64,000 nucleotides of DNA from Gemmatimonadales bacterium (GCA_035637355.1 DASPXJ010000056.1:2517-66516), one strand, 5' to 3'; shown: positions 1 to 7,963, counted from the stretch's first letter. Notes: a model not told the origin generated them from the sequence alone. Program-made: numbers and translations.

Positions 1-145
1 CACGTGAGTTCATTGTTCAAGCGGTACGAGATGACGTTCGCGACAGGGCTGACGAGTTCATCATGGGTACCCCGCGTCCAACCCAAAGCGATCGCGTTGC
101 AGCGCCCAGGTGGTCCCGCTTGCTGCAGAAAGACCGCCGATTTCC

Positions 146-781
146 TTAAGAACCCCAGATGGGGATTCTCACGACCCCCCTCAGATATGCAGCCCAATAG
201 GCAATGCCGACACCGCTAGCACCAAGCGCGCCCGTAATCTCCGCCCGCACTGGCGGGATAATCTTTATTCCCAGCCCAAGCTCTCCTACTTCGTAGAAGT
301 CCGTCTTGTCGTCGTGAGGAAACTGAACTGTCGACGTCGGCTTGTATTGTGCATGCGCGGCGCCAAGGTATATGTTGAGCACTGGATAGACTGGATAGGC
401 CTCGTAGAAATAGCCGAAGGCACCGCCGACGCTGACATCAAAGGCGCTAATGGTTCCCACTTGTTGACCAGTCGAGTCAACGAGTGTTCGCTTGCCGATC
501 GACTCTCCGCGTATGACGATTGCAAAACCCTTTCCTCCAACCGGAATCCCGAACTCGGCGGTGTAGCTAGCCTTGTCACCAAACGCGACCAATGCGTCCC
601 GATCAGGACGTTTGGTCGCGGTGTCGGCGCGAAAAACGACCCCGTCACCAAACCGCCAAAGCTTCCCTACCCCAACGGCGAGCCAGGCGGCGCCACCTTG
701 CGGTTCCCGTTGCGCTGCCAAGTCGACACTCGTGACTGCGAATTCTGAGAGGCACAGCGCTAGGCGGGCAACCCGCAACAT
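146..781 (-). CDS. putative outer-membrane beta-barrel protein (accessory region)
   Basis: ORF 146..850 trimmed to the internal ATG at 781 (MLRVARLALCL...). Alternating amphipathic strands rich in aromatics (YTAEFGIPV, ISAFDVSVGGAFGYFYEAY, NIYLGAAHAQY). No family recognised and no canonical C-terminal aromatic residue. Confidence 0.4.
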   Translation of the reverse strand: MLRVARLALCLSEFAVTSVDLAAQREPQGGAAWLAVGVGKLWRFGDGVVFRADTATKRPDRDALVAFGDKASYTAEFGIPVGGKGFAIVIRGESIGKRTLVDSTGQQVGTISAFDVSVGGAFGYFYEAYPVYPVLNIYLGAAHAQYKPTSTVQFPHDDKTDFYEVGELGLGIKIIPPVRAEITGALGASGVGIAYWAAYLRGVVRIPIWGS

Positions 782-999
782 CGGACTTCCTCCGGCTCCC
801 CTCGAGGCGTGGGGGATCCGCACGACATCGCGCCTCGCAGTTCGTAGCATCTGGGTTGTGTTTCAATATGCGTCCCAGAGCGTGGCTCGCAAGGTGGGCG
901 GGACGGCCTAATACCTTCGCTCTGCGCGGCCGGGCGGGTGGAGGGGCCTGGCAGGTAGAGCGCGTTCGCTACTTCGGCCAAGAGACCGAGAAGCAACCC

Positions 1000-1157
1000 G
1001 TGGTAGCAACGGTGGTAACAACGGCGCCGTCGCTGGCTGGCGCCGGCCGACGCGCGACACCTGTAAGTGCCTCAAACAACAACGGCCGGCATCGGTGGTC
1101 GCTGGCCGGTGCCGCCTCCGGAGCCGACGGTCCCGCGTTCGAATCGCGGCTGGCGCA
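1000..1157 (+). repeat. att-like repeat copy A: GGTAACAA-type motifs plus a tRNA-Arg(CCG)-like 3' fragment (anticodon loop to discriminator, 1116..1157)
   Basis: Aligns by eye with 4539..4698. Last 29 nt are identical (GGTCCCGCGTTCGAATCGCGGCTGGCGCA). Reads as loop CTCCGGA, GCCGA, CGGTC, T arm CCGCG-TTCGAAT-CGCGG, acceptor strand CTGGCGC, then A. No D arm and no pairing 5' anticodon-stem strand. Confidence 0.65.
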
Positions 1158-1456
1158 TTGAGGTACACGGTCGATTTCTCCTCTGTAACAGATTTCGTAA
1201 CAAGGCGGCCTTATTGGCTCGCCGGGTTAACTCGCGCAAACAGATCACCCGCGTTCCCGCCCCTATCCCCAATCCAAACCTCCCAACGAATCCTCTGCTC
1301 CAAAGGGACTTCATTCGCCGTAAAATAGAAGAGCAGCCGTTCCCGCGCCGAAGTGGCGTCTTAGGAACGACTGCTCGTTGAACAGCGACCAGCCGGTTGT
1401 ACGCTAAATAAAACCTACCCTGCTTGTCGCCTAACCAGTAGCCGGATTGACAAACC

Positions 1457-1873
1457 TCACTTCACTGGAAGGCCCCGCAGCAGCGCGTCTGGGACCCGGT
1501 CTCGAACCTCGGCAAAAAGCCGCTGCGCGCGACCTAGAACCTCTTCCATGTCCCCACGCAGAAAGTCTGGGCGGTTGATTACGTAATCCGCTTGCTCGCG
1601 CTGAAGGCGAAGGGTGCAGAGCTTCTGCTTGATGTTCATCAGGTGAGCCCGTTTGCTGTCGTGCAAAGTGGACCGCACCCAGTGGTGCGTGTTATACGGA
1701 GGCACTGTGCCAGCGCCGTTCACTTGGTCGATGCGCTTGATCAACAAGAGCAGGCAGGCGTAATAGCTTCGATTCATCGCGGTGCGCCAGCAGCTTTGCT
1801 CCGAAGCGCCACCGGGTCGGGCCGTCACGAGGTCAACGGCAATTGTGAGCAGTGCTTCCGGGTCGAGCGGCAT
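1457..1873 (-). CDS. HEPN domain protein (candidate toxin/effector)
   Basis: 138 aa. All-helical pattern with NRSYYACLLLLIKRI and a C-terminal REQADYV motif typical of HEPN (PF05168-like) proteins. ATG directly abuts the stop of the upstream gene. Confidence 0.5.
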   Translation of the reverse strand: MPLDPEALLTIAVDLVTARPGGASEQSCWRTAMNRSYYACLLLLIKRIDQVNGAGTVPPYNTHHWVRSTLHDSKRAHLMNIKQKLCTLRLQREQADYVINRPDFLRGDMEEVLGRAQRLFAEVRDRVPDALLRGLPVK

Positions 1874-2422
1874 CTACTGCGCTCTATGACACACCAAAAC
1901 GAAATCGTCCTCGACTGCGGGGAAGGCGGTAACGAAGTAGTTGACCAAAGCGTCCTCTCCATCAAGGAACGCTTCCAGCGCGATTACGGGCGTGCTGATT
2001 GTCACCACGGCGAAAACGTTGGGCTCGCGGTCGATATCGCACCGGAGGTCGGCGCTCATCGTAGTTGCTACTCCGAAAAGCCGTTTTGCCTCGCCTCGAA
2101 GCCCGCGCAGCGCTTGAATCCGTGCTTCCGACCACCATTCCGCGCCTACAGGCTCGGCGGTGCGCTTAGTAAGCGCGTTCACCAACCTCGCTGTCGCTGT
2201 CGCCCGCACGGTTACCGCGTCTCGAATTGTCCCGGCATCCGCACTGTAGAGCCACACCTTGTTGAACGGAGCACGGCTTACGTGCCTGCCGAGATTAGCC
2301 TGCGCGAGAAATCCCGCGTCAACCACATACCAAACAAAGCGCTTCGCTGGCTTGGAGGCCTCCACGTCCCACTTCTCGGACAGCGCTAGATTGCCCCTGG
2401 GGCGAAAAGCAGTCGAGTTCAT
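1874..2422 (-). CDS. hypothetical protein, middle gene of the HEPN cassette
   Basis: 182-aa ORF. Its stop abuts the HEPN start and its start overlaps the upstream stop (ATGA). No GSx..DxD nucleotidyltransferase motif recognised. Confidence 0.5.
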   Translation of the reverse strand: MNSTAFRPRGNLALSEKWDVEASKPAKRFVWYVVDAGFLAQANLGRHVSRAPFNKVWLYSADAGTIRDAVTVRATATARLVNALTKRTAEPVGAEWWSEARIQALRGLRGEAKRLFGVATTMSADLRCDIDREPNVFAVVTISTPVIALEAFLDGEDALVNYFVTAFPAVEDDFVLVCHRAQ

Positions 2423-2880
2423 AGTGATTCGTTGGCAGTCATGCGGACATGAAGAATAATCAGAATCATGGCATCGTGCACGACGCGCAGCGCTGTAAAA
2501 AGTGCCTCGGGTGATAAACCCTCCTCCCGCAACACTCTGACCACGAGTATCCTCGTGATCCTTCGCGCCTCCTCATCGGCGTCAATGACAAACTCAACCT
2601 CACCATGCAGCAGTAGGTCGCGCACAAGATTGAATCGAAAGACTCTAAACTCTTGTGGGCTGAGTGCTCCGATCACTCGCCGGTGCTCGTCGCTGACTTC
2701 TACGGCGCGAATAATCCTGACTAAGTGGTCGCGGTCAGCGGGACAAAGAATGTGAGTTAGGAGCCCGTCCTTCCCCGGGTAGTTGACGGCGAAGTGCCAT
2801 CGCGTTTTGGAGTCCTCCACGACATCGACGGATATCCCCTCACGCTCAAGCCATCGTCTGACCTGCTGAGCATCAACCAT
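2419..2880 (-). CDS. hypothetical protein, YbjN/DUF2299-like (tentative)
   Basis: 153-aa ORF, first gene of the cassette. General resemblance to the YbjN-type chaperone-like fold (VRRWLEREGISVDVVED..., FVIDADEE...). Weak by-eye call. Confidence 0.4.
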   Translation of the reverse strand: MVDAQQVRRWLEREGISVDVVEDSKTRWHFAVNYPGKDGLLTHILCPADRDHLVRIIRAVEVSDEHRRVIGALSPQEFRVFRFNLVRDLLLHGEVEFVIDADEEARRITRILVVRVLREEGLSPEALFTALRVVHDAMILIILHVRMTANESL

Positions 2881-3027
2881 GAATCACCGCCGAAGTGGGG
2901 AGAGAACGTGAACCGAAGTTACCTATGCGCCCCACTGGGGCAAGCAGCGCCTTAGTTGTCGCGGTTTCATGGGGAGGATCGCAGAAACGATTTGGAGAAC
3001 GTGCCAGCCAACGAACAACACCGTCAC

Positions 3028-3603
3028 CTACTCGCGGCCACCAAACCAGCGCCACGTTGAGACAAAGACCCACACAGCCGCACCAACCCACAAGAGCCAC
3101 GCGATTAGCCCCACCCCCTCGTCGCCATTGGTAGCGATCGCGTTTGCGACTAGAAACCCGACCACAAGCGCTCCCCAGAGCATTGCGATTTTGCCGGGGT
3201 GCCACCGCGTGACGTCCTTCGCCGTCTCTCTCCGTTCGCTTTTCTGATTCAGAAGCTGGTCAACGGTTGCACACAGGAGTTCGAGCCGCTGGTGGAAGAT
3301 GCGGTGCTCCGGTGTCGATGCTGGCGCGTCCAGCACCACACCCATGTCCCGCCGCAGTTCGACTAACTCCTCACGCGCGAGGCCCATAAGGAGCCTGTGG
3401 GCGTGCTGCTCGGGCATTGAGACGAGCATGGCGAGAAAGGAATCGGTCGGGGTGCTCGTCGCCGTATCGCCTTCCGGTTGTTGGCTCGGCTGGACAGCGA
3501 ACACTGACCCACAGGCACTACAGGAGTACACACGGCCAAATGTCTTTTCACGGATTGCGACCGCGCCGCCACAGTTCGAACACTTCGCGGGCGGCGCGCT
3601 CAC
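3028..3603 (-). CDS. zinc-ribbon membrane protein
   Basis: GTG start overlapping the upstream stop (GTGA). N-terminal CxxC...CxxC (CSNCGG...CSACGS). Two C-terminal hydrophobic helices (IAMLWGALVVGFLVANAI, LIAWLLWVGAAVWVFV). Confidence 0.55.
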   Translation of the reverse strand: MSAPPAKCSNCGGAVAIREKTFGRVYSCSACGSVFAVQPSQQPEGDTATSTPTDSFLAMLVSMPEQHAHRLLMGLAREELVELRRDMGVVLDAPASTPEHRIFHQRLELLCATVDQLLNQKSERRETAKDVTRWHPGKIAMLWGALVVGFLVANAIATNGDEGVGLIAWLLWVGAAVWVFVSTWRWFGGRE

Positions 3604-3740
3604 GGTTTGTACGTAATCGTGATCTTGACCTTGAAGGAATTACCACAGGGCCCGTAGTTCTTTCGACCCTTCGGAGAGCCCTTGTAGCCCTGGCAGCCGA
3701 TGTACGGTATCTCCTTTTCGGTTTCCTTGGTCGTCACCAT
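3600..3740 (-). CDS. small protein, 46 aa (not in the ORF track)
   Basis: Own translation: MVTTKETEKEIPYIGCQGYKGSPKGRKNYGPCGNSFKVKITITYKP. Its ATG overlaps the upstream stop (ATGGTGA) and its stop overlaps the downstream GTG start. Confidence 0.4.
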   Translation of the reverse strand: MVTTKETEKEIPYIGCQGYKGSPKGRKNYGPCGNSFKVKITITYKP

Positions 3741-3994
3741 GCCGTGAACAATGCGTCCGATGTCAGAACCGCCGTTATAACAGAGTGAGTTGCTGCAATT
3801 GATGTACTGGCCACATGATCGTAAACAGCCGGTTCGCCACGAAACATCGGCGACACACCGCGTCCAGACTCGGTTACTTCCACACGTAGCTTGTCAATTG
3901 TGGGGAATGCTTCCTTAAGTGGAACCTTCGGCCCCATGATTGATTCGCCTTGATTGAACACATCCGAAGCCTTCTGTCGCTTGTTCCGGTCCAT
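3734..3994 (-). CDS. hypothetical protein (86 aa)
   Basis: ORF 3734..4117 trimmed to ATG 3994 (MDRNKRQKASD...), which lies 4 nt after the stop of the upstream gene. Confidence 0.4.
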   Translation of the reverse strand: MDRNKRQKASDVFNQGESIMGPKVPLKEAFPTIDKLRVEVTESGRGVSPMFRGEPAVYDHVASTSIAATHSVITAVLTSDALFTAW

Positions 3995-3998
3995 GAGC

Positions 3999-4247
3999 CT
4001 AGCTCGCACGGCTGATCGTGACGGTGGGTGCGAACCCCGTCCATACAGCCTCGCCGGTTCCCGGTCGTACGACGGTCGACGTACTCCCGGCAGCACCCGG
4101 CATGGCGACCGTGACAAGCGGACCGGCCTGCTCGCCGGGCGTGAGAATGTGTATGTCCGGGTTGTGGTAAGGATCGTGCGACCGCTGAGTGCCCAAGCAA
4201 AGAGCGCAAGCGAACAGCGCGCCGTGCGCGCAACGAATCGGTCTCAA
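3999..4247 (-). CDS. small secreted protein or lipoprotein (82 aa, TTG start)
   Basis: Frame of ORF 3999..4319. TTG at 4247 is preceded by GGGGG. N-terminus RPIRCAHGALFACALC resembles a signal/lipobox. The ATG at 4319 would overlap the upstream gene by 64 nt. Confidence 0.35.
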   Translation of the reverse strand: MRPIRCAHGALFACALCLGTQRSHDPYHNPDIHILTPGEQAGPLVTVAMPGAAGSTSTVVRPGTGEAVWTGFAPTVTISRAS

Positions 4248-4255
4248 GTAACCCC

Positions 4256-4483
4256 CTAGTTCTGGCTCAACACGTGTGCGTAGATAGCCGCGCGCACGCG
4301 CTCGTACTGCTCGTACCAACCGGGCTCGCCTTGGCCCTCAAGGACCGGCCAGATTTTCAGCGACAGGGTTGCACCATAGTCGCGCGCGGGCTCCGCATTC
4401 CTCAGCGCACATCGGGCGAACAACTTGCCGTCGACCAGCACGGTCCCGTGGTGCGACAATTTGCGGCGGGCGTCGAGTGTCAT
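4256..4483 (-). CDS. hypothetical protein (75 aa), first gene of the island operon
   Basis: ATG at 4483 preceded by AAGGAGG (complement of 4491..4497) at 7-nt spacing, with an AT-rich stretch upstream. Confidence 0.55.
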   Translation of the reverse strand: MTLDARRKLSHHGTVLVDGKLFARCALRNAEPARDYGATLSLKIWPVLEGQGEPGWYEQYERVRAAIYAHVLSQN

Positions 4484-4538
4484 GGTGGGCCCTCCTTCGC
4501 ATCTAAAATCTAACTACTTGGGTGCATCCCATCCTATG

Positions 4539-4698
4539 ACGTGGTAACAATGGCGGTAACAACGGGGACGTTTTTGACGGGTACTGGCGAGTGTGACTAC
4601 GCGCTTGGTGGTAGAAACAACAACGGCCAGCGTTGGTGATCGCTGGCCGTCCTGGCCTCCGCAGCCGAAGGTCCCGCGTTCGAATCGCGGCTGGCGCA
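4539..4698 (+). repeat. att-like repeat copy B: GGTAACAA-type motifs plus a tRNA-Arg(CCG)-like 3' fragment (4657..4698)
   Basis: Direct repeat of 1000..1157 with an identical terminal 29 nt (4670..4698). GGTAACAATGG at 4543..4553 and GGTAACAACGG at 4555..4565. Ends 2 nt before the stop codon of the convergent gene at 4700. Confidence 0.65.
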
Positions 4699-4699
4699 C

Positions 4700-5386
4700 T
4701 CAGAAGACGAGAGCAAACCCGATCCGTCCCAGCGACTGTTGAATCGGCGCGGCGGTATCGCCACTCCCATCGTTCGTCGTCCGCGAGAAGCGCTGGAATC
4801 CATAGTCCCCCGTCACGCGCACGCGGCCGCGCAGGGCCTCCACCGTGAGCCCGAGGCCGAGATGCAGCGCGCCGAGCGCTGACGTCGATCCCCCGCCCGA
4901 GTATTTCGAGCCGAACATCAGCCCGCCGCTCAACGCCATGCGGACGCCAGGCCCCAACAGGTACGCCATCTGCGCGCCGGCCGTCACGGCCCCGACCGAT
5001 TGCGCTTCGAACTCCGGATCCGCCGTGCGGTTCATGAAGCCGAGCTCACCGCTCACCGGGCCGGTGATGTAGTACCGCAGCCGCACGTCCACTTCCGACG
5101 CGTCGAACTCTTTGGTGGCGGTTCCGTCTTTGCTGGGCTTGTACTTCAGCTTCGAGAGCACGACGTCGGCTGAGAACTTCTTCCACTGGACTGTGGCGCT
5201 GCCGGCGATGCCGGAGCCGCGGTAATGCAGGTCGGAGGACACCTCGCGATAATCCCCGAACGCGATCTGAGGGCCGACGGAGAAATGCTGGGCGGAAAGT
5301 TGGAATGTTGGAATGTTGGAAAGAACTAGAGTTAATGCGACCGTCCAACCGTCCAACCGTCCAACCGTCCAACGTTTCTCGCTCAT
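4700..5386 (-). CDS. outer-membrane beta-barrel protein
   Basis: 228 aa. Signal peptide ends SAQ. Amphipathic strands and C-terminal ...GFALVF (terminal Phe). Start overlaps the upstream stop (ATGA). Confidence 0.65.
   Translation of the reverse strand: MSEKRWTVGRLDGWTVALTLVLSNIPTFQLSAQHFSVGPQIAFGDYREVSSDLHYRGSGIAGSATVQWKKFSADVVLSKLKYKPSKDGTATKEFDASEVDVRLRYYITGPVSGELGFMNRTADPEFEAQSVGAVTAGAQMAYLLGPGVRMALSGGLMFGSKYSGGGSTSALGALHLGLGLTVEALRGRVRVTGDYGFQRFSRTTNDGSGDTAAPIQQSLGRIGFALVF
5299..5372. repeat. inverted blocks of 8-nt tandem repeats: (GTTGGAAT)x3 and (CCGTCCAA)x4
   Basis: Read directly from the sequence. The blocks are separated by 18 nt and lie inside the signal-peptide coding part of 4700..5386. 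Confidence 0.8.
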
Positions 5387-6418: not shown

Positions 6419-7963
6419 TCATCCTTCCGGATCGAGCACCCAGTTTTTGCGGACCGGCCCGTTGGGGGGAACATCGACGGTCTCGCTGCGTGTCTTGTAA
6501 CCGGCGCGCTCCACGCGAATCGAGTGACGCCCCGGGCTCACCGTAAACTCGACGACCGGCGTCGGCCCGACATCGCGGCCGTCGATGAACACCTCACCCG
6601 GCGGGATCGAATTCACCGTGATAAACCCCTGCTCGGCCGCGGCCGGAGGAGCGGCGCCTCGCCTCGAGGGAGGTGGCGGCGGCGGTTGCGCCGCAACGCG
6701 AGGCGGTTCCGCCGGTACCACGGCAGCCGGTGGAGGTGCCGGTGGAGCCTCACTCTTTCTGCCCAGTGTCAGATAGCCGCCGACGCCGGCCGCGGCGACC
6801 ACGAGCGCGCCCACCAGAATGCCGACACCCGACCGCTTCTTCTTTGCCGTGGGGATCGTCATCCCCGCGCGCGGGATCGGCGTCGTCGGAGCCGCCGTTA
6901 CTTCGGTCGGCGCATCGGCCGCAGCGGTGCGCTGCGGCCGCGGCGGCGGCCGCCGCTGGCTCTTGCTCGCTCCAGCCTTGGGGGCAGTCACCGGCTGTTC
7001 GGGCCACACGGCGGTGGCGAAGTCTTCCATCGTGTCGAAGCGCTGGGCCGGCTCCTTGGAAAGCGCGCGGGAGATGGCTCGAGTGAGGAACTCGGGCGCA
7101 TCGCCGCGCTTGGCGCGCGCGCTCGGGATCTCCTCGAAGATGTGCTTATAGAGGATTGTGTGGACCGAATCGCCGCTATACGGCAGCTCGGCGGTCATCA
7201 TGCGATACGCGACGACGCCGAGCGAGTACTGGTCGGCGCGGCCGTCCACGGTGGCGCCCTTGGCCTGCTCGGGCGCCATGTAGTGCGGCGTCCCGATGAT
7301 CATCCCCGTGCCGGTGAAGCCCGTCGCTGCCTGCAGCGCCTTGGAGATGCCGAAGTCGGTCAGCATCACGCGGCCGTCGTGGTCGAACATGATGTTGGCG
7401 GGCTTCACGTCGCGGTGCACGACGCCGCGTTGATGGGCATGGCCGAGGGCGCAGGCCGCTTCCCATAACACGCGCTGGATGTAATCGATGGTGAGCGGGG
7501 GGGGCTGCTTCTGATCGAGCACGTCCTCGAGCGACGTGCCCGCGATGTATTTCATGACGAAGTAGTTGAGCCCGCCCTCGCTCTCGACGCGGTAAATCGG
7601 GATGATGTTCGTGTGATCGAGCTTCGCCGAGGTCTTCGCTTCCTGCTGGAAACGCTTGACGATGTGCTCGTCCATCGAGATGTCGGGCGGCAGCACCTTG
7701 ATCGCGACTTCGCGCTCGAGCGTCAGGTCATGCGCCAGAAAAACGGCGCCCATGCCGCCCTTGCCGAGCATGCGCTCGACCTTGTATTTCCCTTCGACCA
7801 GGCGCTGCAGCCGCAGCATCAGCGCTTCGGTGCCGGTTGTGGCCGCGCCGAGCGTGCCGCCTCCCGTCACATCCGCGCCGCAGGCGTAGCAGAACTTGCT
7901 GCCGTCCGGCAGCGGCGTGTGGCATTTGAGGCATTCCATCATCGAACCCGCGGCTCCGGTCAT
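6419..7963 (-). CDS. Ser/Thr protein kinase with N-terminal zinc ribbon and C-terminal PEGA domain
   Basis: Hanks kinase motifs (GKGGMGAVF, VAIK, HRDVKPANI, DFG, APE). N-terminal CLKCH...CYACG. TM helix. C-terminal ITVNSIPPGEVFIDG...GRHSIRVERAGY (PEGA). Confidence 0.85.
   Translation of the reverse strand: MTGAAGSMMECLKCHTPLPDGSKFCYACGADVTGGGTLGAATTGTEALMLRLQRLVEGKYKVERMLGKGGMGAVFLAHDLTLEREVAIKVLPPDISMDEHIVKRFQQEAKTSAKLDHTNIIPIYRVESEGGLNYFVMKYIAGTSLEDVLDQKQPPPLTIDYIQRVLWEAACALGHAHQRGVVHRDVKPANIMFDHDGRVMLTDFGISKALQAATGFTGTGMIIGTPHYMAPEQAKGATVDGRADQYSLGVVAYRMMTAELPYSGDSVHTILYKHIFEEIPSARAKRGDAPEFLTRAISRALSKEPAQRFDTMEDFATAVWPEQPVTAPKAGASKSQRRPPPRPQRTAAADAPTEVTAAPTTPIPRAGMTIPTAKKKRSGVGILVGALVVAAAGVGGYLTLGRKSEAPPAPPPAAVVPAEPPRVAAQPPPPPPSRRGAAPPAAAEQGFITVNSIPPGEVFIDGRDVGPTPVVEFTVSPGRHSIRVERAGYKTRSETVDVPPNGPVRKNWVLDPEG

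What the first reader, a model, noticed from the sequence alone, without database searches (positions are those of the whole stretch)
1000..4698. Two ~160-nt repeats ending in an identical tRNA-Arg(CCG)-like 3' fragment bracket an integrase-less 3.4-kb island
Seen: 1000..1157 and 4539..4698 align in direct orientation. The last 29 nt are identical (GGTCCCGCGTTCGAATCGCGGCTGGCGCA); the rest is only roughly 80% similar by eye. The shared 3' part reads as a tRNA from the anticodon loop onward. It has loop CTCCGGA in copy A (anticodon CCG) or CTCCGCA in copy B, then GCCGA, then a 5-nt variable loop. These are followed by T arm CCGCG-TTCGAAT-CGCGG, acceptor strand CTGGCGC and discriminator A. Neither copy has a D arm or a pairing 5' anticodon-stem strand, so both are fragments. 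The non-tRNA part carries repeated GGTA(A/G)CAAYGG motifs (1002..1024, 4543..4565). GTAACA motifs recur just right of copy A (1185..1205). That is the layout expected for arm-type recombinase sites around att cores. The enclosed DNA is AT-richer than the core (hand counts of a few lines). Inference: this is a tandem array of two related tRNA-Arg-targeting elements. Copy A would be the junction; the left element and the intact tRNA would lie off the left edge. Copy B would be the terminal attR, abutting the native OMP gene at 4700. No integrase, excisionase or replication gene lies in 1158..4538, so this unit would need a recombinase supplied in trans, or it is a decayed remnant.
Basis: partly seen in the sequence, partly recalled or inferred. 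Interest (0 to 1): 0.6.

Follow-up and report, generated by a model that had tools for sequence, protein, structure and literature searches.

The report
Integrase-less island array at tRNA-Arg
Two small pieces of foreign DNA that no longer carry their own integration enzyme sit one behind the other after a tRNA-Arg gene of a soil Gemmatimonadales bacterium, which is a known way for bacteria to pile up accessory genes.

Summary
Copies A (1000-1157) and B (4539-4698) are real direct repeats. Each ends in the 3' half of tRNA-Arg(CCG), starting at the anticodon loop. The intact tRNA-Arg(CCG) lies 1.9 kb left of the window. At least five congeners have the empty site, with the tRNA abutting the 4700 gene. 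Both enclosed segments have about 59% GC against 66% genome-wide, and neither holds a recombinase.

New here: the ~160-nt module (two arm repeats, a conserved hairpin, an anticodon-loop core) is the conserved end of a Gemmatimonadales-wide element family. This family also targets tRNA-Thr(CGT), Ile(GAT) and Arg(TCT), and it forms arrays with unit spacings of 0.4-7.5 kb. Its cognate integrase is a divergent ~420-aa tyrosine recombinase. When present, it sits on the other side of the core and reads toward it. A match lay there for only 7 of 36 testable units, four of them as remnants. This genome has none.

The locus is a tandem accretion of decayed, CIME-like elements, comparable to tycheposon islands. 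It is a new member of a known kind and of moderate interest. Mobilisation of the cassettes in trans is not excluded.

The parts
1..13 (-). First 13 nt of a 446-aa trypsin-like protease with TPR repeats (C56:1189-2529). It is cargo of the left cassette, and most of the gene lies left of the window.
   Evidence: ORF list. Pfam Trypsin_2 at 1.8e-23 plus TPR families.
146..782 (-). 212-aa protein of no known family, cargo of the left cassette. The listed ORF runs to 850; there is an ATG at 782.
   Evidence: no family match.
795..912 (.).
   Evidence: 81-84% identity to L139, L155, L164 and L181.
1002..1024 (+). P-arm direct repeats of copy A (GGTAGCAACGG, GGTAACAACGG).
   Evidence: The pair is conserved in 59 of 78 metagenome units by regular expression.
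1083..1108 (.). Hairpin of copy A, degenerate (one mismatch and one G-T pair).
   Evidence: Fold z-score -0.7.
1114..1157 (+). tRNA-Arg(CCG) 3' half, copy A, from the anticodon loop to the discriminator base. It is the core of the junction between the two cassettes.
   Evidence: 95-98% identity to the intact tRNA.
1158..1259 (+). P' arm of the right cassette, with GGTACACGG at 1162, GTAACA at 1185 and GTAACAA at 1197.
   Evidence: Window 1114-1259 is 78% identical to two sites in G004. One of them follows that genome's intact tRNA-Arg(CCG). P' arms of the same layout appear.
1457..2880 (-). Three overlapping cargo genes: a 153-aa DUF2299 protein, a 182-aa protein, and a 138-aa protein with faint HEPN-like hits.
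   Evidence: PF10061 at 1.6e-22; phrog_5176 at 6e-8; PADLOC HEPN_IX at only 0.043.
3028..3603 (-). 191-aa cargo protein with an N-terminal zinc ribbon and a hydrophobic C-terminal part.
   Evidence: weak zinc-ribbon hits only.
3991..4538 (.). End segment of the right cassette, shared with a cassette of G033:C79.
   Evidence: 79% identity over 709 nt, including copy B.
4256..4483 (-). 75-aa protein that is conserved next to B-type units on three other contigs. Function unknown.
   Evidence: 70-83% amino-acid identity in L031, L171 and L205. The AlphaFold model was poor.
4543..4565 (+). P-arm direct repeats of copy B (GGTAACAATGG, GGTAACAACGG).
4624..4649 (.). Perfect 9-bp hairpin with an 8-nt loop. 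On the minus strand it is followed by GTTGTTGTTTC, so it looks like a terminator for transcription entering from the core side.
   Evidence: Terminator-like site on the minus strand at 4651-4622. Fold -29.3 kcal/mol, z-score -5.7.
4654..4698 (+). tRNA-Arg(CCG) 3' half, copy B. This is the terminal displaced fragment (attR side), and its loop carries a G-to-C change.
4700..5386 (-). Native 228-aa gene, a putative outer-membrane protein that ends in ...ALVF. No family match. It is the chromosomal flank of the site.
   Evidence: Homologues (58-77% amino-acid identity) lie beside tRNA-Arg(CCG) in nine relatives' loci; a tenth hit (L010, the 76.8% one) lies beside a unit where ARAGORN called no intact tRNA. 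No Pfam or NCBIfam hit.

Best explanation
The locus is a tandem accretion of two decayed integrative elements at the tRNA-Arg(CCG) gene of a soil Gemmatimonadales genome.

**Proposed mechanism.** Steps 1 to 3 are inferred from the anatomy. Step 4 is supported by remnants seen in other contigs.
1. Each element arrived as a circle with an attP laid out as follows: P arm (two GGTAACAACGG repeats, ~60 nt, hairpin), then a core at the anticodon loop, then a copy of the tRNA 3' half, then a P' arm (two or three GTAACA-type repeats).
2. A family-specific tyrosine integrase recombined the core with the anticodon loop of the chromosomal tRNA. The element's copy of the 3' half restored the gene. The old 3' half was displaced to the far end, behind the P arm.
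3. A second integration at the restored tRNA pushed the first element outward. This left copy A as a P-core-P' junction and copy B as the terminal attR beside the native gene at 4700.
4. The integrase genes, which in intact relatives sit on the P' side and read toward the core, were then deleted.

**Result.** Two cargo-only cassettes of 3.1 and 3.5 kb remain. They cannot move unless a cognate integrase comes in from outside, because this assembly encodes none.
For: **Site anatomy**
- The intact tRNA and two 3'-half fragments lie in direct orientation.
- Identity to the tRNA starts at the anticodon loop in both copies and in all ten aligned units.

**Empty sites and foreign composition**
- Five congeners have the empty site.
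- GC is 7-8 points lower in both cassettes than in the genome.

**The unit is a conserved module**
- It occurs in 7 of 36 same-genus genomes besides G000.
- 12 distinct Arg(CCG)-type units were found in species-representative genomes and 80 in soil metagenome contigs.
- The cargo next to these units is unrelated from one locus to the next.
- A sister module with GTGGTGCCAA repeats and the same hairpin carries the reverse complement of the tRNA-Thr(CGT) 5' half, again starting at the anticodon loop. 43 distinct units of this kind were found, including two on G000:C12.

**Cognate integrase family**
- Six recombinase frames near units form one family, 50-93% identical to each other. L138 and L082 are 99.8% identical and are one element. 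Pfam PF00589 scores range from 2e-7 to 1.5e-11.
- Of 36 Arg-type units with at least 2.5 kb available on the P' side, 7 have a family match there. All 7 are on the opposite strand; 3 are full-length and 4 are C-terminal remnants. None of 39 units has a match on the P side.

**Absence from G000**
- tblastn finds no family member.
- The genome search gives 0 matches in G000, against 10 of 36 congeners with a match.
- A family HMM run on all frames of at least 30 aa finds only an unrelated weak hit on C97.

**Mosaic arrays**
- One cassette plus its unit is 98% identical between G033:C73 and L070, and the homology stops just past the core.
- Two homologous cassettes stand in opposite order in G033 and G019.
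Against:
- The left junction does not fit the simple model. The intact tRNA is followed by a 57-nt copy (~89% identical) of the tail of the 4700 gene, not by a P' arm.
- Copy A's hairpin is degenerate, and copy B's loop is mutated.
- No intact element with both GTAACAAC-type arms and a full integrase was seen end to end. The full-length integrases sit beside other P' types (AAACAGTYGC repeats in L155) or beside a truncated core (L138/L082).
- The genome is a 187-contig MAG, 95.7% complete. An integrase could lie in the unassembled part.
- A second copy of the tRNA cluster on C123 shows that the region is not cleanly resolved.
Confidence: 0.62

Rival explanations
1. The cassettes are non-autonomous elements that are still mobile. 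They keep working P and P' sites and are excised, shuffled and re-inserted in trans by family integrases from incoming or co-resident elements. The tRNA-anchored arrays would then behave like an integron-style cassette reservoir.
For: - Most units lack any integrase trace nearby (29 of 36 on the P' side), yet the whole ~170-nt module stays conserved. Most columns are at least 80% conserved in 91 units.
- Spacings between adjacent units are small: 412-7496 nt in 10 Arg pairs and 950-5551 nt in 12 Thr pairs.
- A cassette that is 98% identical in two species-level genomes has different neighbours, and the homology breaks just past the core.
- Cassette order differs between G033 and G019.
- Full-length family integrases are abundant in public data, with 1843 clusters at E<=1e-10 among the 8000 candidates scored.
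Against: - C-terminal integrase remnants at the expected place show decay rather than design.
- Most array-bearing congeners have no full-length family integrase. Among the 36 congeners only G012 and G011 do.
- The sample of units was found with patterns that require an intact hairpin or core, which inflates apparent conservation.
- Copy A's hairpin and copy B's loop are damaged.
- No excision was shown.
Confidence: 0.28
2. The repeats arose without a site-specific recombinase. A segmental duplication of the tRNA end, or homologous recombination with DNA from relatives, produced the repeated tRNA halves and the insertions.
For: - The outermost repeat pair (C56:569-670 and 7170-7270, 93% identical over 102 nt) extends 57 nt beyond the tRNA into the neighbouring gene. 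This looks more like homology-driven exchange than a clean att site.
- A second tRNA cluster copy exists on C123.
Against: - Copies A and B belong to different unit subtypes. Copy A's arm is 84-89% identical to units of G028 and G005. Copy B's arm groups with G033:C79. They are therefore not duplicates of each other.
- The same module architecture recurs at four different tRNAs, with boundaries at the anticodon loop, and a dedicated integrase family sits beside it.
Confidence: 0.05
3. The ~160-nt units are genes for a structured, tRNA-like small RNA or are purely regulatory repeats such as terminators, and have nothing to do with recombination.
For: - The hairpin is conserved. Compensatory changes on both sides are visible by eye in 2 of 10 aligned units.
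- Copy B's hairpin scores as terminator-like on the minus strand.
- The same hairpin also occurs away from tRNA fragments in Gemmatimonadales contigs.
Against: - There is no Rfam match, even at E<=1.
- The whole unit does not fold better than shuffled sequence (z-scores -1.3 and -0.7).
- In the Thr family the core is the antisense of a tRNA 5' half. The shared logic is therefore at the DNA level (the anticodon loop), not a tRNA-like RNA end.
Confidence: 0.03
4. The arrangement is an assembly or binning artefact of the MAG.
For: - The assembly has 187 contigs.
- Two versions of the Val-Arg-Pro-Arg tRNA cluster end or begin contigs C123 and C56.
Against: - Thirteen soil runs were listed for window 900-4900, and 12 of them hold at least half of the sampled words. 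Eleven of those 12 are flagged as possible sources. The one that is not (X12, a separate study) holds 88% of the words. Word content does not prove contiguity.
- The same architecture is seen in independent assemblies.
Confidence: 0.02

Closest known systems
CIMEs (cis-mobilizable elements) and tandem accretion at ICE/IME att sites in streptococci. Read as passages of the review PMC5704250. The primary papers, Pavlovic 2004 and Bellanger 2011, were seen only as references there.
   Same: Both are elements that have lost their integration genes but keep attL and attR. Both sit in tandem at the 3' end of a tRNA gene, built up by successive site-specific integrations.
   Different: - The host phylum and the integrase family are different.
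- No conjugation or mobilisation genes were seen here.
- The Gemmatimonadales cassettes are small (unit spacing 0.4-7.5 kb).
- They share a long conserved end module with a hairpin.
- The family uses several tRNAs, and either the 3' or the 5' half.
- Cis-mobilisation is untested here.
Tycheposon-built genomic islands of Prochlorococcus (bioRxiv 10.1101/2020.12.28.424599; passages read, supplements closed).
   Same: Both involve tRNA-targeting tyrosine-recombinase elements. In both, new arrivals push older ones into the island, leaving partial tRNAs, fragmented integrases and cargo-only material.
   Different: - Tycheposons usually carry a replication module, and some are PICI-like. No replication genes were seen here.
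- Whether the integrases are related to each other was not tested.
- The conserved P-arm and hairpin module does not appear in the passages I read.
Islander-type tDNA genomic islands with an anticodon-centred attP (PMC4383910; passages read).
   Same: An intact tDNA plus a displaced fragment in direct orientation. Crossover at the anticodon loop: 2083 of 3919 Islander islands are of this class, 3760 have 3' fragments and 159 have 5' fragments. Tandem arrays are known (125 with two or more).
   Different: Islander requires each island to have its own integrase gene, so arrays like this one are excluded by its design.
Integrons (from general knowledge, recalled).
   Same: Arrays of small integrase-less cassettes, each ending in a recombination site that contains a hairpin.
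   Different: - There is no integrase gene at the head of the G000 array.
- The sites are tRNA halves with arm repeats, not attC.
- The recombinase family is not IntI.
- An IntI-like gene does exist elsewhere in this genome (C3), but it is not linked to the array.
Tandem ssrA-targeting islands of Dehalococcoides (PMC3146451; search listing and start of abstract only).
   Same: Site-specific islands at a single tDNA (here the tmRNA gene ssrA), in an uncultured-type environmental lineage.
   Different: The target there is the tmRNA gene. Further comparison was not made, because only the listing was read.

Membership tests
tDNA-integrated genomic island (Islander definition) | Intact tRNA gene plus a cognate fragment in direct orientation bounding the island | tested here: met
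   Intact tRNA-Arg(CCG) at C56:540-613. Fragments at window 1114-1157 and 4654-4698, on the same strand.
tDNA-integrated genomic island (Islander definition) | Own integrase gene inside each island | tested here: not met
   No PF00589 match on C56. No recombinase among the cargo ORFs. No family integrase in G000.
tDNA-integrated genomic island (Islander definition) | Crossover sublocation, here the anticodon loop | tested here: inconclusive
   Identity with the tRNA begins two bases before the loop in the Arg units and inside the loop in the Thr units. The strand-exchange point itself cannot be read from sequence.
CIME (cis-mobilizable element) | Retains attL and attR | tested here: met
   Right cassette: P' arm (1158-1259), P arm (4543-4649), and cores on both sides. 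Left cassette: only the right end is canonical. Its left end is the intact tRNA followed by a 57-nt copy of the neighbouring gene's tail.
CIME (cis-mobilizable element) | [quoted passage not shown] | tested here: met
CIME (cis-mobilizable element) | Derived from an autonomous element by deletion | tested here: inconclusive
   Integrase remnants at the expected position occur in other contigs (L160, L181, L141, L066). No remnant is left in G000.
CIME (cis-mobilizable element) | Can be mobilised together with an incoming related element | not testable with these tools
   This needs an excision or transfer experiment.
Integron | intI gene next to attI at the head of the array | tested here: not met
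   The array head in G000 is a tRNA cluster. The IntI-like gene is on C3.
Integron | attC sites with R''/L''-L'/R' structure and a GTTRRRY core (consensus recalled) | tested here: not met
   By eye only: the hairpin flanks read ...CAACGG / CCGTTG..., and the repeated unit is a tRNA half.
Known structured RNA (Rfam) | Match to a covariance model | tested here: not met
   No match at gathering scores in the whole window, and none at E<=1 in 900-4800.

The most novel reading that the evidence does not exclude
Gemmatimonadales may run a tRNA-anchored cassette system. Small integrase-less cassettes would keep a ~170-360-nt end module (arm repeats, an insulating hairpin, an anticodon-loop core). Members of a large, diversified tyrosine-integrase family would capture, shuffle and exchange these cassettes between arrays at several tRNA genes. 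Each integrase subfamily would have its own arm motif (GTAACAAC, GTGCCAA or AAACAGTYGC) and its own tRNA target. The two cassettes in this window would then be live substrates of that system, not fossils.
Probability: 0.28. Interest if true: 0.72.

Novelty: new member of a known kind. Interest (0 to 1): 0.42.

Why it matters
- Gemmatimonadota are abundant in soil but barely cultured, and their mobile DNA is almost undescribed. My searches found no paper on these elements.
- The conserved end module makes it easy to find the flexible-gene hot spots of this clade. Cargo seen here includes a mercury-resistance operon, proteins with TIR and PLD domains, faint HEPN-like hits, and kinases.
- The integrase family, together with its defined sites in tRNA-Arg(CCG) and tRNA-Thr(CGT), could be turned into site-specific integration tools for a phylum that lacks genetic tools.
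- For annotation, the hairpin-plus-fragment units are miscalled by ARAGORN as 69-nt tRNA-Arg genes in some contigs.

Tried and rejected
- **Structured RNA.** Rfam found nothing. Whole-unit folds are no better than shuffles. The first fold call failed on length.
- **Phage origin.** The hairpin pattern in IMG/VR gave 5 stretches. None has arm repeats or a tRNA core, so they are chance matches.
- **First integrase screen.** phmmer with G000's own recombinase frames found nothing in 5770 ORFs and one fragment in 2875 ORFs. This was a false negative. A small custom HMM then found six family integrases, two of them in the set screened first. The early statement 'no integrase near any unit' was therefore withdrawn.
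- **Recurrent flank genes.** The families that recur most in the flanks (ECF sigma factor, HlyD, cupin, HTH and others) are cargo or chromosomal genes, not recombinases.
- **G000:C140 integrase.** It belongs with its G028:C10 homologue, which heads a tRNA-Gln island carrying QueC, FolE2 and radical-SAM genes. It is not the cognate enzyme.
- **The 75-aa conserved protein.** The AlphaFold model had a mean pLDDT of 49, so no fold search was run.
- **Origin of the 57-nt gene-tail copy.** BLAST against the relatives was uninformative.
- **Xer/dif and attC readings.** Both were rejected by eye and from recalled consensus sequences only, not by a test.

Full report
**Where the window lies.** The window is G000:C56:2517-66516 of a 3.32-Mb, 187-contig assembly. 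The assembly is 95.7% complete and 1.7% contaminated. Contigs that carry the same sequence module have public titles naming Gemmatimonadota, Gemmatimonadales or Gemmatimonadaceae MAGs in 67 of the 80 listed rows. I therefore treat the organism as a soil Gemmatimonadales bacterium.

- Copies A (1000-1157) and B (4539-4698) align directly. BLASTN gives 76.4% identity over 161 nt, with E 1e-23 against the whole assembly. MAFFT gives 82% mean column identity. The spacing is 3541 nt.
- The last 29 nt are identical.
- The 3' ~45 nt are the 3' half of tRNA-Arg(CCG). ARAGORN on the whole assembly finds intact tRNA-Arg(CCG) genes at C56:540-613 and C123:5321-5394. Both fragments match them at 96-100%.
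- The C56 gene lies 1.9 kb left of the window start, in a Val(GAC)-Arg(ACG)-Pro(CGG)-Arg(CCG) cluster.
- ARAGORN finds no tRNA in the window. Rfam finds nothing at gathering scores or at E<=1 in 900-4800.
- GC is 59.2% for the left segment (C56:614-3515) and 58.5% for the right one (window 1158-4538). The genome has 66.4%.
- No recombinase, excisionase or replication protein is detectable among the ORFs of either segment.

**Empty sites exist in relatives.**
- The homologue of the 4700 gene ends 0-10 nt from an intact tRNA-Arg(CCG) in G008, G036, G002 and G034, and 37 nt from it in G013.
- Three further genomes have gaps of 430-620 nt: G022, G018 and G028. The G018 value rests on an unpublished genome.
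- In G000 the last base of copy B is one base from the stop codon of that gene. Copy B plus the gene therefore reproduces the empty-site junction. Everything between the intact tRNA and copy B is an insertion.

**The unit is a conserved module, not a local oddity.**
- A search of 60 relatives found near-full-length copies (arm plus tRNA half) in 7 of 36 same-genus genomes. These are G005, G009 (unpublished), G012, G014, G028 (two copies), G029 and G033.
- The ten aligned units share five features:
  - two GGTAACAACGG repeats spaced one helical turn apart;
  - a conserved ~60-nt stretch;
  - a hairpin, CGGCCAGCG-N8-CGCTGGCCG;
  - about six bases of spacer;
  - tRNA sequence running from the anticodon loop to the 3' end.
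- By eye, 2 of the 10 hairpins show changes on both sides that keep the pairing (G028 copy 2 and G033).
- Pattern scans added 12 distinct Arg(CCG)-type units in species-representative genomes and 80 in soil metagenome contigs. These scans required an intact hairpin or core. The conservation of the arm and middle parts was not imposed by the search: most columns are at least 80% conserved in 91 units. It may still reflect relatedness.
- Copy A is close to the majority type. Its arm is 84-89% identical to the arms of G028 and G005.
- Copy B belongs to a minority type shared with G033:C79. The two are 79% identical over 709 nt, which includes a 75-aa gene.
- A and B are therefore two independent acquisitions, not duplicates of each other.

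**A sister family shows that the logic is at the DNA level.**
- On other contigs the same hairpin is preceded by two GTGGTGCCAA repeats. It is followed by the reverse complement of the 5' half of tRNA-Thr(CGT), again starting at the anticodon loop.
- 43 distinct units of this type were found. Some form arrays that end at an intact tRNA-Thr, as in G019:C126.
- G000 has two such units on C12, upstream of its tRNA-Thr(CGT).
- Single cases use Ile(GAT) (three units) and Arg(TCT) (one unit).
- An antisense 5' half cannot make a tRNA-like RNA end. The whole Arg unit also does not fold better than shuffled sequence, with z-scores of -1.3 and -0.7. The common denominator is a crossover at the anticodon loop.
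- Anticodon-loop crossovers are the most frequent class in Islander: 2083 of 3919 islands. Islander also records 159 islands with 5' fragments (PMC4383910, passages read).

**Sequence on the other side of the core.**
- Right of copy A stand GGTACACGG, GTAACA and GTAACAA (1162-1203).
- Window 1114-1259 is 78% identical to two places in G004. One of them directly follows that genome's intact tRNA-Arg(CCG).
- Other units are followed by three GTTACAAC/GGTAACAAC repeats, or by two AAACAGTYGC repeats. My motif classification there was crude, and it placed copy A itself under 'other'.
- Copy A therefore has arm repeats on both sides, as a junction of two tandem elements should. Copy B has them only on the left.

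**The cognate integrase.**
- The PF00589 search found no tyrosine recombinase on the array contigs of G000, G028, G014, G012 or G029.
- A Pfam scan of 61 ORFs around nine arrays found none either.
- A phmmer screen with G000's own recombinases also found nothing. That screen later proved insensitive.
- An HMM built from six catalytic domains then found six recombinase frames close to units, among 14,552 ORFs.
- The six form one family, 50-93% identical to each other. L138 and L082 are 99.8% identical and are the same element.
- The three full-length frames scanned reach PF00589 at 2e-7 to 1.5e-11. The two scanned against NCBIfam have only sub-threshold XerA/XerD-like matches. The one queried has no sequence relative among solved structures.
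- The family is large: 1843 clusters at E<=1e-10 among the 8000 candidates scored. Where a name is given, it is only 'integrase'.
- Its position is fixed. Of 36 Arg-type units with at least 2.5 kb available on the P' side, 7 have a family match within 2.5 kb, and all 7 read toward the core. Three are full-length (L138 and L082, which are one element, and L155). Four are C-terminal remnants (L141 counted for two units, L160, L181).
- None of 39 units has a match on the P side.
- In two contigs (L163, L181) a full or contig-cut integrase instead lies 69 nt upstream of the intact tRNA-Arg(CCG) and reads toward it. This is the geometry seen at tRNA-Thr and tRNA-Gly(CCC) in G017 and G012. The same tRNA seems to be targeted from both sides by different subfamilies.

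**This genome has no such integrase.**
- tblastn with all six proteins gives nothing at E<=1e-3.
- The genome search finds 0 matches in G000. By contrast 10 of 36 congeners have a match, near full length only in G012 and G011.
- A family HMM run over every frame of at least 30 aa finds only a weak hit (E 4.5e-4) to an unrelated recombinase on C97.
- G000's other PF00589 genes, named here from size and sequence end-motifs recalled from memory, are:
  - two Xer-like genes (C69, C62);
  - an integron-integrase-like gene (C3);
  - the C97 gene;
  - a C140 gene whose G028 homologue heads a tRNA-Gln island.

**Evidence for decay and for modular exchange.**
- Remnants of the integrase C-terminus at the expected place show that integrase-bearing elements lose the gene while keeping their ends.
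- Among Thr arrays, a 754-nt cassette of G033 corresponds to the P-proximal 680 nt of a 3.3-kb cassette of G019 (84% identity). Two homologous cassettes also stand in opposite order in the two genomes.
- One cassette plus its unit is 98% identical over 1212 nt between G033:C73 and L070. Homology stops just past the core, and the next cassettes are unrelated.
- Spacings between adjacent units are 412-7496 nt (10 Arg pairs) and 950-5551 nt (12 Thr pairs).
- These facts fit site-specific accretion and exchange at the cores. They do not tell whether integrase-less cassettes still move.

**The hairpin.**
- In copy B it is perfect and strong: -29.3 kcal/mol, z-score -5.7.
- On the minus strand it is followed by GTTGTTGTTTC and scores as terminator-like.
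- In both families this orientation would stop transcription that enters the element from the core side. In the Thr family, that is transcription from the displaced tRNA promoter and 5' half.
- The same hairpin also follows an intact tRNA-Ser in one contig, and it stands alone elsewhere.
- I read it as an insulating terminator (inference). A binding site for an accessory recombination protein is equally possible.
- Copy A's hairpin is degenerate (z-score -0.7).

**What does not fit.**
- The intact tRNA on C56 is followed by 57 nt that copy the tail of the 4700 gene at about 89% identity. As a result, C56:569-670 and 7170-7270 form a 102-nt repeat that is 93% identical.
- No P' arm follows the intact tRNA. 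The left cassette thus begins with empty-site sequence.
- Capture of flanking DNA by an earlier aberrant excision in a donor, or a homologous exchange with a relative, could explain this. BLAST gave no clue.
- C123 carries a second version of the tRNA cluster, followed by a small gene as in G028. C123 is 79-82% identical to the cluster regions of G011 and G028 over 4.6-4.8 kb. G000 has only one copy of the 4700 gene.
- C123 and the start of C56 may be two haplotypes of one variable site, or a real duplication. This stays open.

**Comparison with what is known.**
- The locus works like the tandem accretions of ICE/IME-derived CIMEs. [quoted passage not shown]
- It also works like tycheposon islands. 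There, incoming elements push older ones inward and leave partial tRNAs and fragmented integrases (bioRxiv 10.1101/2020.12.28.424599, passages read; its supplements were closed and may hold closer parallels).
- It fails the Islander definition only because neither island has its own integrase.
- It is not an integron: there is no intI at the head of the array and there are no attC sites.
- Four literature searches found no description of these Gemmatimonadales elements. The search terms were CIME/accretion, tandem islands/anticodon loop, Gemmatimonadetes/integrase/tRNA/genomic island, and tycheposons.

**Verdict.**
- It is a new member of a known kind: decayed, integrase-less integrative elements stacked at a tRNA gene.
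- Its added value is that it exposes an undescribed element and integrase family of a poorly known phylum.
- Interest is moderate (0.42).
- The boldest reading not excluded is an integron-like, trans-served cassette system anchored at tRNA anticodon loops (probability about 0.28).
- Two claims rest on unpublished genomes. G009 supplies one of the ten aligned units and the TIR cargo. G018 supplies one spacing value. No main conclusion depends on either.

Noticed in passing
G000:C12:15600-18006 (locus L128), outside the window: A second array in the same genome. Two tRNA-Thr(CGT) 5'-half fragments, each followed by the same hairpin and by GTGGTGCCAA repeats, lie 1.37 kb apart. The second hairpin lies 0.9 kb from the intact tRNA-Thr(CGT), and both fragments are upstream of it.
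   Followed up: partly
L001:614-670 (C56, left of the window): The intact tRNA-Arg(CCG) is followed by a 57-nt copy (~89% identical) of the 3' end of the gene at window 4700. It is not followed by a P' arm, so the outermost repeat pair is 102 nt long. Unexplained.
   Followed up: partly
G000:C123:4515-5537 (locus L002): A second version of the tRNA cluster (Ala, Gly, Met, Val, Arg, Pro, Arg(CCG)), followed by a small gene as in G028. The tRNA sequences are nearly the same as on C56, but the spacers are unrelated. This could be a co-assembled haplotype or a true duplication.
   Followed up: partly
G000:C3:64128-65180 (locus L129:12129-13181): A 351-aa tyrosine recombinase near a contig end, with PF00589 and Phage_int_SAM_4 domains. 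By recall it looks like an integron integrase. No attC array was looked for.
   Followed up: no
L001:458-530; L002:4860-4945, 5100-5200 and 5285-5320; window 5297-5372: Spacers between the tRNA genes hold inverted arrays of short tandem repeats of 7-8 nt, such as TGATCAAT, GCGGATTG/CAATCCGC and CTAGACGG. The repeat word differs from spacer to spacer. Tandem GGAATGTT and CCGTCCAA repeats lie at the 5' end of the 4700 gene.
   Followed up: no
L023:9473-9676 and L024:9141-9296 (G028:C11): Two Arg-type units lie 19.6 kb apart beside tRNA-Asn(GTT), not at G028's own tRNA-Arg(CCG). The T-arm of the first copy matches the G012 type of tRNA-Arg rather than G028's own. A MerR/HMA/MerA-like operon ends at the second unit. 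The units seem to travel inside a larger island.
   Followed up: partly
L071 and L101 (genome-contig loci): Some tRNA-Arg 3'-half fragments carry a ~38-nt insertion inside the T loop.
   Followed up: no
L127:1-8216 (G028:C10) and L126:5657-11592 (G000:C140): In G028, a low-GC island next to tRNA-Gln(CTG) carries QueC, FolE2, a protein with an HTH_17 domain, and its own divergent integrase. G000:C140 has a homologous integrase (29% identity) together with QueC and a radical-SAM gene.
   Followed up: partly
L025:12820-12888, L006:1501-1569 and L160:3992-4060: ARAGORN calls a 69-nt 'tRNA-Arg(ccg)' from the hairpin plus the tRNA half. This is an annotation pitfall for these units.
   Followed up: no
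window 795-912: A conserved ~118-nt block just left of copy A recurs near units on four metagenome contigs. Its function is unknown.
   Followed up: partly
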